The notes beneath the pieces are model-generated. The model was not told where the DNA came from, did no database searches, and saw nothing but the letters and a program-made list of their open reading frames with translations. Both the position numbers and the translations under genes were made by a program. Below, in pieces: positions 33,734-37,034 of a DNA stretch of 64,000 nt. The DNA lies in assembly GCF_054482595.1 (NCBI RefSeq), contig NZ_JBTHVH010000001.1; one strand, 5' to 3'. How positions within the stretch are numbered: the stretch's first letter is position 1; the number at the start of each line of letters is the position of its first letter. The stretch is from a plasmid.

Positions 33734-34312
33734 ATGTTGCGCTTTACTGAGGAAGAGTTTCAGGCTTTTAGTGAGCGTCGAAATAAGGGGCGGTCCAGGC
33801 CAAAAACCAAAAAGGATCCATTCTTATCGCTTGCGCCGGTAAAAGAAGTTTCTCCACATGCGAAGGCACTTGCAGCACTGGCAAAGAACCCAGACCTGCG
33901 CGACGGAAATTGCGAGCACTTCGAGCAGGTTTTCATTTTTGATTACTTCGAACGCAAGCACCCTGACATCTATGAGCTGTTGCATGCAACGCCTAACGGA
34001 GGGAAGCGTTCAAAAGCAACCGCCGGGAAAATGAAGGCTGAAGGGCAGAAAAAAGGTTATCCGGACATGAGTCTCGATAAAGCATGCGGTATTTATCACG
34101 GCATGCGAATTGAGCTTAAAGAACCAAATGGTAAAGCCCCGACGAAAGAGCAGATCGCCTGGATGCGCAGGCTTAGAGAGGAAGGCTACTACGTTGTTCT
34201 TGCGTATGGTGCAGAACAAGCGATTACCGCCATCCTGGAATACATAAGTCTTAAAAAGGGTGAGGCTATTGAGCATGTATTGAACGGCGATAAGTGGTTG
34301 CATGCTGCTTAA
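33734..34312 (+). CDS. VRR-NUC-like nuclease domain protein
   Basis: GYPDMSL...GMRIELKEP...QIAWMRRLREEGYYV block. Confidence 0.45.
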   Translation: MLRFTEEEFQAFSERRNKGRSRPKTKKDPFLSLAPVKEVSPHAKALAALAKNPDLRDGNCEHFEQVFIFDYFERKHPDIYELLHATPNGGKRSKATAGKMKAEGQKKGYPDMSLDKACGIYHGMRIELKEPNGKAPTKEQIAWMRRLREEGYYVVLAYGAEQAITAILEYISLKKGEAIEHVLNGDKWLHAA

Positions 34313-34508
34313 AATAATAAATTAATTAGTGCATGTACGCTCTTTGTGGTAGTGCACTTTAACATCGGGAGAATAATCGTGTCATCCAAGGTTAATTATG
34401 AGTCGCTGGCATCGGTCATGCCGCGTAATGAACAGGAAACAGATGCTGTAGTGGACCCTGTAATCGCTGAAATGAATGCTCGCCTGGAGGCTGAATTTGC
34501 AGCTGAGA

Positions 34509-35138
34509 ATGAACATACCACCCAGGGCGACTAGGACTGTTTTTTGTGTCGGTAGCGGTCCGTCACTCACTCGTGAGGACTGTGCTGCTATAGAAAAAAC
34601 TGGCTGTTCAATCATCGCGGTTAACAATTCCTGGCAGATGTTCGATGACATTTATGCCTTATACGCCGGTGATTTGTCATGGTGGAAGCAATACGGATCC
34701 ACCATACCGGGAGGGAGATTCCGCAAAGTGACAGCCAACCTGGCGGCGGCGAAATCATTTTCGTTGGAGTACAGGCGATATTGTGGACCGGCGGAAGGGG
34801 TAAATAGCGGCGCGCAGGCTATCAGTCTGGCTGCTGAATCAGGGGCTGAAGTAGTGGTATTAGTCGGCTATGACTGTTCTCTGCAAAACGGCCTTCATTG
34901 GCATGGCGCGCACCCTCAAGCACTACGGAATCCAACGCAGGTGTCTATTTCAAAATGGCAACAGCAGTTCCTGGATACCCGCAAAAAACACGCAGATTTA
35001 CATATTTTGAATGCAAGTAGGAGCAGTGCAATTCAATGTTTCCCAAGAATAAATTTAGAGGCAGTGATCGCGTTATTATCGTCGGCAGTGGCCCAAGCGC
35101 CGCAAACTTTGTTGCGCCGCGCGGAGTGCCGATTATAG
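34509..35138 (+). CDS. MptE/DUF115-like protein (paralogue 1)
   Basis: VFCVGSGPS...IIAVNNS...NSGAQAI...VVLVGYD; ATG at 34509 preferred over the track start. Confidence 0.4.
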   Translation: MNIPPRATRTVFCVGSGPSLTREDCAAIEKTGCSIIAVNNSWQMFDDIYALYAGDLSWWKQYGSTIPGGRFRKVTANLAAAKSFSLEYRRYCGPAEGVNSGAQAISLAAESGAEVVVLVGYDCSLQNGLHWHGAHPQALRNPTQVSISKWQQQFLDTRKKHADLHILNASRSSAIQCFPRINLEAVIALLSSAVAQAPQTLLRRAECRL

Positions 35139-35662
35139 CGGTCAATGGGGCCATCGACTGGCTTAACCGCGCTTCTTATTTTTTCACCCTTGATCCATCC
35201 CCAGACAATATGCGGCGCGTTGGTCGTGGCCGCCGTCGCCGTGGTGTTTGTTATTGCATGGCACTACCCGATGTTAAAGAACGTGAAGTCAGAGATGGCG
35301 TTCTGTGCTTCCGTCGTGTGGCTGAACGCGGCATGGAGCCAAAAAATACGAATTCTCCCGAGTGGTGGGCGTGGCGCTGGTCCGCACATTTCGGCCTTTG
35401 CGAAGATGAGAATGAAATTGCCAGCGGCAATAGTGCATATGGTGCTCTGAACCTGGCTTTCCATATCGGATTCAAACATGTAGCTCTGGTGGGCGTTGAC
35501 GCTACGCAAGAACTACGCGTTCACTCCGGCGGCACGCCAAAAAATCTAAGTCACCTGCCTTTGTTATTCCAGTCTGCGCGTGAACAGATTGACGTTGTTT
35601 CATGCGGGAAAATGGGAGGTATTCCGCAGATGACTCTTAAAGAATGGCTGAAGAATACATGA
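35036..35662 (+). CDS. MptE/DUF115-like protein (paralogue 2)
   Basis: VIIVGSGPS...IIAVNGA...NSAYGAL...VALVGVD; overlaps the 3' end of paralogue 1. Confidence 0.4.
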
Positions 35663-36336
35663 TGGCACCCACAATTTATCACCGTATCGACGGTACCAAA
35701 TACAGGAATGTCTGGGTTGTTGGTGATCTGCATGGTTGCTACACCAGACTGATGTCCGAACTCCATCGTGTGGATTTTGACCCGGCGCAGGATTTACTGA
35801 TATCGGTCGGCGACCTTATCGATCGCGGTACTGAAAATGTCGAATGTCTGGAACTATTGCAGATGCCCTGGTTCAGGGCAGTGATGGGGAACCATGAGCG
35901 GCTGATGATTGATGCGTTAAGTCCAGATGGCAACGTGAATAACTGGCTAATGAATGGCGGACAATGGTTCTTCATGCTGGACACTGATCAGGAAATATTA
36001 GCCTGGGCGCTGGTGGAGCTGGTAAAGCGTCTGCCCTATATCATTGAGTTGAACACGGGGCAAGAAACTATCGTTATAGCCCATGCCGACTATCCGGATA
36101 ATGAATACCAATTCGGTAAGGAGGTGCCGCTTTTCAACGTTGTCTGGGCGCGCGAGCGTATCAGTGATTCGATGGATGATATTGGTGGCGAAATTTCGGG
36201 CGCAGATCGTTTTATCTTTGGTCACACTCCGGTGAAAAGCCCGAAGACATTCTGGAATCAGCAGTATATCGACACTGGTGCCGTATTTTGCGGAAACCTG
36301 ACATTGATGAAAGTGAAAGGTGATGGTGCAGCATGA
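35644..36336 (+). CDS. ppp: Ser/Thr protein phosphatase (calcineurin-like metallophosphatase)
   Basis: GDLHG, GDLIDRG, GNHE motifs. Confidence 0.8.
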
Positions 36337-37034
36337 AGATTGCTTTAGTTTTTCGCTCTGGTGGTGACTATAACGCTTCCGATGTGCAGTGGCTGGTTAA
36401 TCAACTGCCAAAAGACTATGAAATTATTTGCCTGACAGACCTGAAGTGTTTACATGTACCTGGCGTCAAAGTTATCCCATTGATCAACCAGTGGCAAAAG
36501 TGCCGTGGCTGGTGGGCGAAAATCGAGTTGTTCCGACCGGATATAACCGATGATCTGTTCTATCTGGATTTGGACACGGTTATTGCCGGTGATATACGCC
36601 CAATCCTAGAGCATCCACCAACCAGCTTCACCATGCTTAGGGATTTTTACCATCCACAATATCGTGGCAGCGGTGCCCTGTGGATACCAAATAGTGTTAA
36701 AGCGCATATCTGGAGTTCATTCTGGCAAGATCCGGAAGGTTGGATTTCTCGTTGTGTCACTACTGAGTGCTGGGGTGACCAGGGGTTCTTACGAAAGGTT
36801 ATGGGCGATGATACACCAGCATTTCAGGATCTGTATCCAGGATGGTTTGTAAGTTACAAGGCCGATGTTGTGGAACCTGGTTCAAAATATGCGAGCGCGC
36901 GTTACTCCAGGGGGAATGGGGCATTACCAAAAGACTGCCGAATAATCTTTTTCCACGGCAAACCGCGACCTCGCGAAGTGTCAGAGGATTGGCTTCCCCT
37001 TATCAGCTCATTTTTTGAGCGAGAATCAGAATAA
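36333..37034 (+). CDS. nucleotide-sugar transferase-like protein (DxD-type motif)
   Basis: YLDLDTV motif; start overlaps the ppp stop. Confidence 0.35.

What the first reader, a model, noticed from the sequence alone, without database searches (positions are those of the whole stretch)
33734..37034. Cluster of VRR-NUC nuclease-like, two tandem MptE/DUF115-like paralogues, Ppp phosphatase and a DxD transferase-like gene
Two overlapping paralogues share the GSGPS...AVN...NS(G/A)...LVG(Y/V)D pattern seen in MptE-like pyrophosphokinase/Maf-type proteins. They are flanked by a VRR-NUC-like nuclease and followed by a metallophosphatase and a DxD-motif protein. The combination suggests a nucleotide-sugar or DNA/virion modification pathway whose substrate is unknown.
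Basis: inference. Interest (0 to 1): 0.45.

Follow-up and report, generated by a model that had tools for sequence, protein, structure and literature searches.

The report
Conserved glycosylation gene trio in phage P1
The region is the pmgM–pmgQ block of a P1-type phage; three of its genes (pmgO, pmgP, pmgQ) form a sugar-transferring module of unknown target found in many unrelated phages, often next to the capsid gene, while the nuclease and the phosphatase are unrelated neighbours.

Summary
The window is a P1-like phage-plasmid (99.5% identical to P1). The finding covers P1 genes pmgM, pmgN, pmgO, pmgP, ppp and pmgQ.

- PmgM is a VRR-NUC nuclease.
- PmgO and PmgP are distant paralogues with the DUF115/MptE fold. 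Their closest solved structure is the Maf glycosyltransferase.
- Ppp is a lambda-type Ser/Thr phosphatase.
- PmgQ is a divergent GT8-like DxD glycosyltransferase.

The five genes are not one pathway. Only pmgO-pmgP-pmgQ recur together. They occur in lambdoid, HK97-like, podovirus-like, 111-kb and jumbo phages of Proteobacteria. Natural fusions exist in the orders O-P, P-Q, Q-P, Q-P-methyltransferase and methyltransferase-P.

Other phages carry sugar-type methyltransferases or extra glycosyltransferases between P and Q. P1 carries ppp in that slot, and a P1 relative (JK004) lacks it. pmgM accompanies the trio only in P1-like genomes.

In 11 loci the trio lies directly after the HK97-type major capsid gene and beside head-tail connector genes; in a twelfth the capsid gene is 3.7 kb upstream.

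Best reading: a late-expressed, dispensable glycan-building module, most likely acting on a virion component. The acceptor and donor are unproven. The P1 virion cryo-EM paper does not mention glycans. Known genes, uncharacterised function, moderate interest.

The parts
33379..33397 (+). Late promoter LPpmgL, mapped from the P1 annotation. It drives pmgL and the genes downstream late in infection.
   Evidence: P1 record AF234172 annotates LPpmgL at 78495-78513. The window is 99.5% identical with an offset of 45116. The sequence was read. The promoter was not tested independently here.
33486..33731 (+). pmgL: small DksA/TraR-like zinc-finger protein. It is a P1-lineage neighbour, not part of the conserved trio.
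   Evidence: phrog_54 'DksA-like zinc-finger protein' at E 1.6e-12. A homologue is present in JK004. Absent next to the trio in non-P1 loci.
33734..34312 (+). pmgM: stand-alone VRR-NUC (PD-(D/E)xK) nuclease, probably a Holliday-junction-type resolvase. It is a P1-lineage neighbour, not part of the conserved trio.
   Evidence: PDB 4qbl 'VRR-NUC' at E 3.5e-17, with GYPD...RIE(L/I)K aligned. phrog_5702 'Holliday junction resolvase' at E 4.8e-27. Pfam VRR_NUC 21.3 bits, below the 23.8 cut-off. Found upstream of the trio only in P1-like contigs L106, L109, L112, L113 and L119.
34319..34335 (-). C1 repressor operator Oppp (Op83), over the predicted promoter PpmgN. It implies that pmgN-pmgQ are repressed in the lysogen.
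   Evidence: P1 annotation. The sequence ATAAATTAATTAGTGCA was read.
34379..34534 (+). pmgN: small acidic ORF (51 aa, pI 4.2) as annotated in P1. Start uncertain, function unknown.
   Evidence: P1 annotation, ORF list, pI. CRISPRi scored it essential but the deletion is viable.
34476..35138 (+). pmgO: minimal DUF115/MptE-fold enzyme (Maf- and sialyltransferase-like), first member of the trio. The true start is probably Met12 at 34509.
35036..35662 (+). pmgP: paralogue of pmgO with the same fold, second member of the trio. It has an AGGAG ribosome-binding site 11 nt upstream.
35644..36336 (+). ppp: lambda-PP-type Mn-dependent Ser/Thr protein phosphatase. It is an insertion into the P-Q junction found in the P1-like genomes examined except JK004, and is not a conserved module member.
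   Evidence: 1g5b at E 1.5e-94. Metallophos 59.3 bits. NCBIfam protein-serine/threonine phosphatase at E 3e-81. Absent in JK004. Present alone in D6. Non-essential.
36333..37034 (+). pmgQ: divergent GT8-like (GT-A fold, DxD) glycosyltransferase, third member of the trio.
   Evidence: Profile A2 against PDB: 6mw5 at E 4.8e-7, 5gvv at 0.004, glycogenin at 0.03, with D79-L-D81, G148-D-Q150 and H208-G-x-P-R-P aligned to GT8 motifs. hhalign against E. coli WaaJ at E 2.4e-4. phrog_1962 'glycosyltransferase'. No Pfam hit for any of 33 homologues.
37036..37101 (.). C1 operators OpmgRa and OpmgRb, which end the block and control pmgR and pmgS.
   Evidence: P1 annotation. ATTGCTCTAATAATTCC and its inverted partner were read.

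Best explanation
pmgO, pmgP and pmgQ encode one cytoplasmic glycan-building module.

The parts:
- PmgO and PmgP are paralogous enzymes of about 200 aa. Each is reduced to the catalytic core of the DUF115 fold shared by Maf flagellin glycosyltransferases and by GT42 and GT29 sialyltransferases. They work as a pair, and some phages fuse them into one chain.
- PmgQ is a GT8-type, DxD and metal-dependent, retaining hexosyltransferase.

The proposed mechanism (inferred):
- The pair transfers a nucleotide-activated sugar. By analogy with the fold's glycosyltransferase members this would be a CMP-activated ulosonic acid. In E. coli K-12 the only such host donor is CMP-Kdo.
- PmgQ adds a UDP-hexose.
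- In other phages the same module also carries O-methyltransferases and further glycosyltransferases, so the product is a short glycan that is often methyl-capped.

Expression in P1: from the late promoter LPpmgL and from a C1-repressed promoter, so during lytic growth only. The genes are dispensable on laboratory hosts.

The most likely acceptor is a virion component, a head or other structural protein. This rests on the recurrent position of the module beside the capsid gene.

ppp (a lambda-type protein phosphatase inserted between pmgP and pmgQ) and pmgM (a VRR-NUC resolvase-like nuclease) are independent neighbours.

Shown here: the homologies, the folds, the conserved trio, the fusions and the genomic contexts.

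My probabilities for the inferred steps:
- The trio is one pathway: about 0.85.
- It transfers sugar rather than pyrophosphate: about 0.7.
- The acceptor is a virion protein: about 0.4.
- The donor is CMP-Kdo: about 0.2-0.25.
For: Conserved trio:
- O, P and Q homologues are adjacent in phiNP (L004, L088), L003, EP_H11 (L086), XacN1 (L087), a Pseudomonas prophage (L092) and an Alcanivorax prophage (L093).
- In 25 non-P1 IMG/VR loci, P and Q occur together in 24 and O is present in 21.

Natural fusions: O-P (P0051), P-Q (P0219, P0286), Q-P (P0303), Q-P-SAM methyltransferase (P0266) and Methyltransf_24-P (P0304).

Fold and family:
- The PmgO profile hits Cst-II at the GxGPSL and SG..GxD motifs.
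- The PmgQ profile hits GT8 at E 4.8e-7, with all three GT8 motifs conserved.

Accessory genes inserted within or beside the module (between P and Q, fused to Q, or after Q) are carbohydrate-type enzymes:
- class-I SAM methyltransferase (L093, L096, L098, L099)
- FkbM methyltransferase (L105, L116, L117, L118)
- TylF methyltransferase fused to Q (XacN1)
- Nucleotid_trans-like glycosyltransferase (L003, L092, L102, L103, L111)
- GT2-like glycosyltransferase (L111)
- GT-B glycosyltransferase (EP_H11)

Late and virion context:
- In 11 loci the trio lies directly after the HK97-type major capsid gene, before or interleaved with gp6-like connector and head-completion genes; in L108 the capsid gene is 3.7 kb upstream.
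- In other loci it follows the lysis cassette and precedes the terminase, overlapping the spanin stop codon in L093.
- In L117 and L118 a head-completion protein with a Ser/Thr/Gly-rich extension is encoded between O and P.
- P1 has a late promoter and C1 operators at the block.

Donor supply and host range:
- No sugar-nucleotide synthesis genes were seen beside the module in the examined loci, so the donors must come from the host.
- Every host that could be named is a proteobacterium, and most are Gammaproteobacteria.
Against: - No glycosylation of P1 virions has been reported. The 3.2-3.5 Å cryo-EM paper on the P1 virion contains no mention of glycans. PmgO, PmgP and PmgQ are not in the virion proteome, and their knockouts plaque normally.
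- The capsid proteins next to the module have no obvious Ser/Thr-rich C-terminal tails. Their Pfam capsid domains run to within 5-11 residues of the C-terminus.
- E. coli WaaZ also matches PF01973. With the GT8 enzymes WaaO and WaaJ it forms a similar family mix in the LPS core operon. An LPS acceptor is therefore a serious alternative.
- The position between the lysis genes and the terminase is a common site for unrelated accessory genes (my own knowledge).
- The P1 proteins score below Pfam's gathering thresholds.
Confidence: 0.45

Rival explanations
1. The trio remodels a host envelope glycan, most plausibly the LPS core. PmgO and PmgP would act like WaaZ, the DUF115-type protein needed for KdoIII addition. 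PmgQ would act like the GT8 core glucosyltransferases WaaO and WaaJ. The result would change or mask surface receptors during lytic growth, protecting progeny from adsorbing to debris or excluding other phages.
For: - E. coli K-12 WaaZ matches PF01973 (E 6.9e-7) and lies in one operon with the GT8 enzymes WaaO and WaaJ.
- The O-P fusion P0051 carries a precomputed faint hit to PF27901 WaaZ_KDO_III.
- PmgQ aligns to WaaJ over 153 columns, including the DxD and H..G..KP motifs (E 2.4e-4).
- PmgO and PmgP are basic (pI 9.0 and 9.5), as peripheral LPS enzymes often are.
- All named hosts are Gram-negative.
- P1 uses the LPS core as its receptor (my own knowledge).
Against: - hhalign of the PmgP and PmgO profiles against WaaZ gives only 19% and 7% probability, limited to one motif.
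- The module is co-transcribed with late head or lysis genes and is C1-repressed in P1. It therefore acts only minutes before lysis, which leaves little time to replace LPS already in the outer membrane.
- In 11 loci the module lies directly after the capsid gene, among head-tail connector genes, which is not where conversion genes usually lie.
Confidence: 0.2
2. PmgO and PmgP are not glycosyltransferases but nucleotide-dependent (pyro)phosphokinases like MptE or thiamine pyrophosphokinase. They would activate or modify a small molecule or a sugar, and PmgQ would act on the product.
For: - The only Pfam family matched is named after MptE.
- Both proteins have invariant Asp residues that could bind Mg-ATP.
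Against: - The best hit, with the longest alignment, is the Maf glycosyltransferase (164 and 157 aligned residues against 126 and 138 for MptE).
- The sequence-level PDB hits are Cst-I and Cst-II sialyltransferases.
- The partners fused to or inserted beside these proteins are glycosyltransferases and sugar-type methyltransferases, never folate, thiamine or nucleotide-metabolism genes.
Confidence: 0.1
3. The trio glycosylates phage DNA as an anti-restriction hypermodification.
For: - Phage-encoded GT-A and GT-B enzymes that glycosylate DNA are known (bioRxiv 10.1101/2023.12.21.572611).
- The genes are expressed during lytic growth. PmgO and PmgP are basic.
- The neighbouring gene pmgM encodes a DNA nuclease.
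Against: - No hydroxymethylase, TET-like dioxygenase or other base-activating gene lies beside the trio in any examined locus.
- The pmg knockouts showed no change in anti-restriction activity.
- P1 DNA is a classical substrate for restriction mapping and is known to carry only methylation (my own knowledge).
- pmgM is not conserved with the trio.
Confidence: 0.06
4. All five genes (VRR-NUC, two DUF115 proteins, Ppp and the DxD transferase) form one pathway. Ppp would dephosphorylate a pathway intermediate and the nuclease would take part.
For: - The genes are contiguous and co-oriented, with overlapping stops and starts.
- ppp sits in the same P-Q slot that holds pathway enzymes in other phages.
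- Calcineurin-like phosphoesterases can act on nucleotide and sugar substrates (NCBIfam hits to ApaH and PrpE).
Against: - The trio occurs without ppp and pmgM in at least 30 loci from at least six phage types.
- The P1-like phage JK004 lacks ppp.
- ppp occurs without the trio in D6.
- Ppp aligns end to end with lambda phosphatase 1g5b (E 1.5e-94; the P1 record puts identity at 64%), and that enzyme lies in an unrelated nin region.
Confidence: 0.04

Closest known systems
Maf (motility-associated factor) flagellin glycosyltransferases, e.g. Magnetospirillum Maf, PDB 5mu5
   Different: Maf proteins are about 600 aa, with N- and C-terminal substrate-binding domains, and lie in flagellin and nonulosonic-acid gene clusters. 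PmgO and PmgP are about 200-aa cores. They come as a paralogous pair, are encoded by phages and have no nonulosonic-acid synthesis genes nearby.
GT42 bacterial sialyltransferases Cst-I and Cst-II of Campylobacter jejuni
   Different: Sequence similarity is not significant (E 0.1-0.6). The PmgO/PmgP core is about 60-90 residues shorter than Cst-I/Cst-II. E. coli K-12 makes no CMP-sialic acid, so the label is almost certainly wrong about the donor. PmgO carries a family-specific invariant HWHGxH motif.
GT8 retaining glycosyltransferases (Skp1 alpha-galactosyltransferase 6mw5, GlyE 5gvv, glycogenin, LPS WaaO/WaaJ)
   Same: The PmgQ family profile hits them (E 4.8e-7 to 0.03), with the DxD, (G)DQ and H-x-x-G-x-x-KP motifs conserved.
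   Different: No PmgQ homologue reaches any Pfam family, including the GT8 family, which is PF01501 by my own knowledge. At about 230 aa PmgQ is shorter than most GT8 enzymes. It is always linked to the DUF115 pair.
Mycobacteriophage virion glycosylation by phage-encoded glycosyltransferases (recalled from my own knowledge; several hits mention it)
   Same: Phage-encoded cytoplasmic glycosyltransferases expressed with structural genes. This is the model for the proposed acceptor.
   Different: The enzyme families and hosts differ. In mycobacteriophages the glycosylation has been shown by experiment. Here nothing has been shown, and the P1 virion cryo-EM paper does not mention glycans.
E. coli LPS core operon proteins WaaZ (DUF115-like) with WaaO and WaaJ (GT8)
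   Same: The same mix of families: PF01973-like plus GT8. Gram-negative setting. WaaZ is linked to Kdo addition, which points to CMP-Kdo as a possible donor.
   Different: Profile similarity to WaaZ is weak (probability 7-19%). The phage module is expressed late in the lytic cycle and usually lies among head or lysis genes.

Membership tests
DUF115 / MptE-like superfamily (Pfam PF01973) - PmgO and PmgP | Score at or above Pfam's gathering threshold (34.6 bits) | tested here: not met
   PmgO scores 23.4 bits (E 5.7e-5) and PmgP 20.9 bits (E 3.4e-4). 31 of 33 and 32 of 34 homologues match at E <= 0.01. Relatives P0051 (44.6 bits) and P0255 (44.1 bits) pass the threshold.
DUF115 / MptE-like superfamily - PmgO and PmgP | Three-dimensional fold of the DUF115 core (Rossmann-like, GT-A variant 2) | tested here: met
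DUF115 / MptE-like superfamily - PmgO and PmgP | N-terminal G-x-G-P-S nucleotide-binding loop, plus the (N/T)SG and G-x-D motifs | tested here: met
   The motifs are invariant or nearly invariant in both families. They align with the Cst-II motifs GNGPSL, TSG and GID.
GT42 sialyltransferase (Cst-I / Cst-II) | Significant sequence similarity to GT42 members | tested here: not met
   The PmgO profile gives E 0.12-0.64 against Cst-II and Cst-I. The PmgP profile gives no GT42 hit.
GT42 sialyltransferase (Cst-I / Cst-II) | Catalytic histidine base (His188 in Cst-II) and CMP-sialic acid donor | not testable with these tools
   Invariant histidines exist after the GxD motif (PmgO H130 and H132, PmgP H173). 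Model coordinates could not be superposed here and no assay is possible.
Maf flagellin glycosyltransferase | Multi-domain architecture (about 600 aa) with flagellin-binding domains | tested here: not met
   PmgO and PmgP are 209 and 208 aa and consist of the core domain only.
Maf flagellin glycosyltransferase | Genomic linkage to flagellin and nonulosonic-acid biosynthesis genes | tested here: not met
   The neighbours in all loci are phage head, lysis, terminase, glycosyltransferase or methyltransferase genes.
WaaZ (KdoIII-associated LPS core protein, PF27901) | Profile similarity to WaaZ over its length | tested here: not met
   hhalign of PmgP against WaaZ gives probability 18.8% over 28 columns. 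PmgO against WaaZ gives 6.9%. There is only a precomputed 'faint' PF27901 hit on P0051. PF27901 did not appear among Pfam hits here, even for E. coli WaaZ itself.
MptE / thiamine pyrophosphokinase (pyrophosphoryl transfer) | Fold similarity | tested here: met
MptE / thiamine pyrophosphokinase (pyrophosphoryl transfer) | Association with folate, pterin or thiamine metabolism, or demonstrated ATP-dependent pyrophosphoryl transfer | tested here: not met
   No such genes lie near the trio in any locus. The partners are glycosyltransferases and methyltransferases. Activity cannot be tested here.
GT8 glycosyltransferase - PmgQ | DxD metal and nucleotide-sugar motif | tested here: met
   D79-L-D81-T82 is invariant in 33 homologues and aligns to the DxD of 6mw5, 5gvv and glycogenin.
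GT8 glycosyltransferase - PmgQ | Conserved (G)DQ motif and C-terminal H-x-x-G-x-x-KP(W) motif | tested here: met
   G148-D149 are invariant and Q150 nearly so. H208-G209 and P213 are invariant, with R212 nearly so. They align to GGDQG and H..G..KPW of the GT8 structures and of WaaJ.
GT8 glycosyltransferase - PmgQ | Match to the Pfam GT8 model (PF01501, accession from my own knowledge) | tested here: not met
   No Pfam family is matched by any of the 33 homologues at E <= 0.01. Only the family profile reaches GT8 structures (E 4.8e-7).
VRR-NUC nuclease - PmgM | Sequence similarity to VRR-NUC proteins, with the PD-(D/E)xK catalytic residues | tested here: met
   4qbl at E 3.5e-17, with GYPD and (R)IE(L/I)K aligned. 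The Pfam score of 21.3 bits is just under the 23.8 cut-off.
PPP-family (lambda-PP) Ser/Thr phosphatase - Ppp | Metallophosphoesterase motifs GDxHG, GDxxDRG and GNHE, with similarity to lambda PP along the full length | tested here: met
   [15 protein letters not shown] and MGNHE are visible in the translation. 1g5b at E 1.5e-94 over residues 11-229. Metallophos 59.3 bits against a cut-off of 21.5.

The most novel reading that the evidence does not exclude
Many phages of Proteobacteria, including the model phage P1, would carry a previously unrecognised virion glycosylation system. It would be built from a two-subunit minimal Maf-like transferase (PmgO/PmgP) and a GT8-like enzyme (PmgQ), and would draw on host CMP-Kdo and UDP-hexose. 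It would decorate a flexible virion protein with a short Kdo-containing glycan, O-methylated in some phages. Candidate acceptors are the Ser/Gly/Thr-rich linker of UpfB, which cryo-EM could not resolve, and Ser/Thr-rich head-completion proteins in HK97-like phages. To my knowledge this would be the first protein glycosylation with Kdo and the first virion glycosylation described for a classical coliphage.
Probability: 0.1. Interest if true: 0.8.

Novelty: new variant of a known kind. Interest (0 to 1): 0.5.

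Why it matters
P1 is among the most used phages in bacterial genetics, yet pmgO, pmgP and pmgQ have carried the placeholder 'putative morphogenetic function' since the genome was annotated.

If these three genes are one glycan-building pathway, several things follow:
- There is a concrete biochemical hypothesis for three orphan P1 genes, testable with existing knockouts.
- Phages of Gram-negative bacteria may glycosylate their own particles or another macromolecule. That would bear on phage stability, host range, immune recognition in therapy and receptor masking.
- The automated label 'alpha-2,3-sialyltransferase' should not be read literally, because the usual hosts make no CMP-sialic acid.
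- ppp and pmgM should be studied separately from the trio.

Tried and rejected
- NCBIfam and PADLOC gave nothing for PmgO, PmgP or PmgQ. There is therefore no curated equivalog and no link to a known defence system.
- Single-sequence PDB searches of PmgO, PmgP and PmgQ gave only noise or one marginal GT8 hit. Profiles were needed. The PmgP profile still found no solved relative by sequence.
- The first IMG/VR scan with the P1-led alignment returned only near-identical P1-type contigs. I repeated it with a divergent sequence first.
- A composite alignment meant to model the natural O-P fusion misaligned the PmgO homologues onto the PmgP half (A5). I dropped it and modelled the two P1 proteins separately, so no model of the O-P interface or of PmgQ was made.
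- The afdb50 fold library was unavailable. The viral fold library showed only that small DUF115-like proteins are common in uncultured phages and giant viruses.
- Programmed frameshifting to make an O-P fusion in P1: no slippery heptamer in the 103-nt overlap. Rejected.
- C-terminal Ser/Thr tails on the neighbouring capsid proteins, as in mycobacteriophages: not present.
- Literature searches for pmgO, pmgP, pmgQ, DUF115 in phages, WaaZ in phages and capsid glycosylation found no functional study. They gave only essentiality data and the P1 proteome and cryo-EM papers.
- The GTDB genome scan returned only 10 loci, all Gammaproteobacteria apart from one unclassified MAG. Its peptide patterns bias it towards close relatives, so it is weak evidence on host range.

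Full report
**Identity of the region**

The window is a P1-type phage-plasmid. Bases 33400-37400 are 99.9% identical to phage JL22 and 99.5% identical to phage P1. The finding maps exactly onto the P1 genes pmgM, pmgN, pmgO, pmgP, ppp and pmgQ.

P1's curated annotation places three sets of regulatory sites around the block:
- the late promoter LPpmgL before pmgL
- the C1 repressor operator Oppp between pmgM and pmgN
- two further C1 operators just after pmgQ

The operator sequences are visible in the window. The block should therefore be silent in the lysogen and expressed in lytic growth, including late.

The P7 record calls the same genes hdmA-D, 'head morphogenesis'. Single knockouts of the pmg genes in this region plaque normally and show no change in anti-restriction activity, and the proteins are not in the virion proteome (PMC9024508). 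A CRISPRi screen scored pmgM, pmgO, pmgP, ppp and pmgQ as non-essential. It scored pmgN as essential, which conflicts with the viable deletion (PMC10695390).

- PmgM matches the solved stand-alone VRR-NUC protein 4qbl (E 3.5e-17), with the catalytic GYPD...IE(L/I)K residues aligned. Pfam falls just short of its threshold.
- Ppp is a full-length relative of lambda phosphatase (1g5b, E 1.5e-94).
- PmgO and PmgP look only marginally alike in pairwise comparison. Their family profiles align over 162 columns (hhalign E 1.2e-14).
  - then SteA, thiamine pyrophosphokinases and mammalian sialyltransferases
- PF01973 matches both proteins below its gathering score. It matches nearly all homologues at E <= 0.01.
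- PmgQ has no Pfam hit, and neither does any of its homologues. Its profile reaches GT8 structures (6mw5 at E 4.8e-7, 5gvv at 0.004, glycogenin at 0.03). The three GT8 signature motifs are invariant in the family: DxD, GDQ and H-G-x-P-R/K-P.

**What belongs together**

Homologues of PmgO, PmgP and PmgQ lie side by side in phages unrelated to P1:
- the Citrobacter rodentium lambdoid phage phiNP
- a podovirus-like metagenomic contig in which O and P are fused into one 376-aa protein
- the 111-kb E. coli phage EP_H11
- the Xanthomonas jumbo phage XacN1
- a Pseudomonas HK97-like prophage
- an Alcanivorax prophage

A second IMG/VR scan led by a divergent sequence gave 25 non-P1 loci. P and Q occur together in 24 of them, and O is present in 21.

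None of these loci has ppp or pmgM. The P1-like Cronobacter phage JK004 keeps pmgL-M-(N)-O-P-Q-R-S-pap but lacks ppp. Phage D6 has ppp among nin-type genes without the trio. pmgM homologues accompany the trio only in P1-like contigs.

An exhaustive profile search of 1.84 billion representative proteins found only 514 PmgP-family clusters. Among them are natural fusions in the orders P-Q, Q-P, Q-P-SAM methyltransferase and Methyltransf_24-P, as well as P joined to a second DUF115-like domain. Together with the O-P fusion, this is Rosetta-stone evidence that O, P, Q and a methyltransferase act in one pathway.

**What the module looks like elsewhere**

The junction between P and Q is a variable slot. 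In different phages it holds:
- a class-I SAM methyltransferase
- an FkbM-type methyltransferase
- a Nucleotid_trans-like glycosyltransferase
- a GT2-like glycosyltransferase
- a GT-B glycosyltransferase

In XacN1 a TylF-type O-methyltransferase is fused to Q. These are the usual companions of glycan assembly and capping. In P1-like genomes other than JK004 the slot holds ppp, including a contig whose Ppp is only 66% identical to this one.

**Genomic context**

- In 11 loci the trio lies directly after the HK97-type major capsid gene, before or interleaved with gp6-like head-tail connector and head-completion genes; in a twelfth (L108) the capsid gene is 3.7 kb upstream. The orders seen are MCP-O-P-Q-connector, MCP-O-connector-P-Q and MCP-connector-P-Q.
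- In L117 and L118 a head-completion protein with a Ser/Thr/Gly-rich extension of about 300 aa is encoded between O and P.
- In four other lineages the trio follows holin, endolysin and spanin genes and precedes the terminase. In one of them it overlaps the spanin stop codon.
- No sugar-nucleotide synthesis genes were seen beside it in the examined loci.
- Every host that could be named is a proteobacterium, and most are Gammaproteobacteria.

**Most likely mechanism**

I conclude that pmgO-pmgP-pmgQ is a late-expressed, dispensable, cytoplasmic glycan-building module.
- PmgO and PmgP act as a paired minimal Maf- or sialyltransferase-like transferase. PmgQ acts as a GT8-type hexosyltransferase. 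Both draw on host-supplied activated sugars.
- The glycosyltransferase members of this fold use CMP-activated ulosonic acids, and the usual hosts make only CMP-Kdo. CMP-Kdo is therefore a plausible donor, but this is inference only.
- The head-gene context makes a virion component the most likely acceptor, at about 0.4.

**Evidence against, and the rivals**

- No P1 virion glycosylation has been reported, and the recent 3.2-3.5 Å cryo-EM paper on the virion never mentions glycans.
- The neighbouring capsid proteins lack Ser/Thr-rich tails.
- LPS core remodelling is the main rival. E. coli WaaZ also matches PF01973 and sits with the GT8 enzymes WaaO and WaaJ. However, profile similarity to WaaZ is weak, and late lytic expression fits poorly with changing LPS already in the outer membrane.
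- A pyrophosphokinase activity cannot be excluded from fold alone. The fused and inserted partners argue against it.
- DNA glycosylation is unlikely. No base-activating genes accompany the trio, and the knockouts do not alter anti-restriction activity.

**Verdict**

- Its five-gene pathway is not supported. The pathway is the three-gene trio.
- The genes themselves are known, and automated pipelines already label them loosely as a sialyltransferase and a glycosyltransferase.
- I found no published account of the conserved trio, its fusions, its accessory methyltransferases and glycosyltransferases, or its capsid-adjacent position.
- Interest is moderate. The result gives a testable biochemical hypothesis for orphan genes of a model phage. 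The acceptor, the donor and the benefit to the phage remain unproven.

Noticed in passing
window 34476-34534: The annotated PmgO start (34476) is probably too far upstream. Homologues of 180-200 aa begin at the equivalent of Met12 (34509). That start would shorten the overlap with pmgN to 26 nt. Neither start has a well-placed Shine-Dalgarno sequence.
   Followed up: partly
window 34379-34534 (pmgN): In the literature, CRISPRi knockdown of pmgN reduced plating about 70-fold and was scored essential, whereas the pmgN deletion is viable. Knockdown of the downstream genes pmgO to pmgQ had no effect, so simple polarity does not explain the discrepancy.
   Followed up: no
window 18495-19346 (- strand), UpfB: UpfB is the baseplate 'tripod' protein that the P1 cryo-EM study could not resolve. 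It contains a Ser/Gly/Thr-rich linker (NTGSGSSSGSGSGGGTATPPP). This is the most Ser/Thr-rich segment in a recognised virion protein within the window, and a speculative candidate O-glycosylation site.
   Followed up: no
L117 5721-7004 and L118 1631-2899: A head-completion protein (PF05521) carries an extension of about 300 aa whose first ~120 residues are about 50% Ser, Thr and Gly. It is encoded between the PmgO-like and PmgP-like genes of two HK97-like viral contigs. It is a possible acceptor protein.
   Followed up: partly
window 2001-2207 (+), 52309-52499 (+), 58868-59074 (-): The 64-kb window holds three copies of the C4 antisense RNA. Two come with a1/b1 target elements and one with an isrK-like RNA. 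I did not check whether this matches the P1 immunity regions or reflects extra immunity modules in this phage-plasmid.
   Followed up: no
window 23859-24012 and 25817-25892: Three tRNA genes: Asn-GTT, Thr-TGT and Met-CAT (the last probably the tRNA that P1 annotates as Ile).
   Followed up: no
window 38671-39177 (pap) and 37336-38598 (pmgS): Pap matches the HAD phosphatase domain of polynucleotide kinase-phosphatase (PF25109, E 5e-12) rather than a generic acid phosphatase. PmgS is a long coiled-coil protein with weak hits to SMC, Rad50 and LmuB.
   Followed up: no
window 39372-40100 (pmgT region): The ORF here is 242 aa, whereas P1 annotates pmgT as 309 aa and P7 annotates a 193-aa upf86.8 at the same place. 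The gene model or the sequence differs between P1-type genomes.
   Followed up: no
window 8001-12000: G+C content rises to 0.50-0.52 against 0.42-0.49 in the flanking sequence. Alignment of window 1-25000 to P1-type phages is split into 4-6 pieces and covers 91-99%, which suggests an insertion or replacement there.
   Followed up: no
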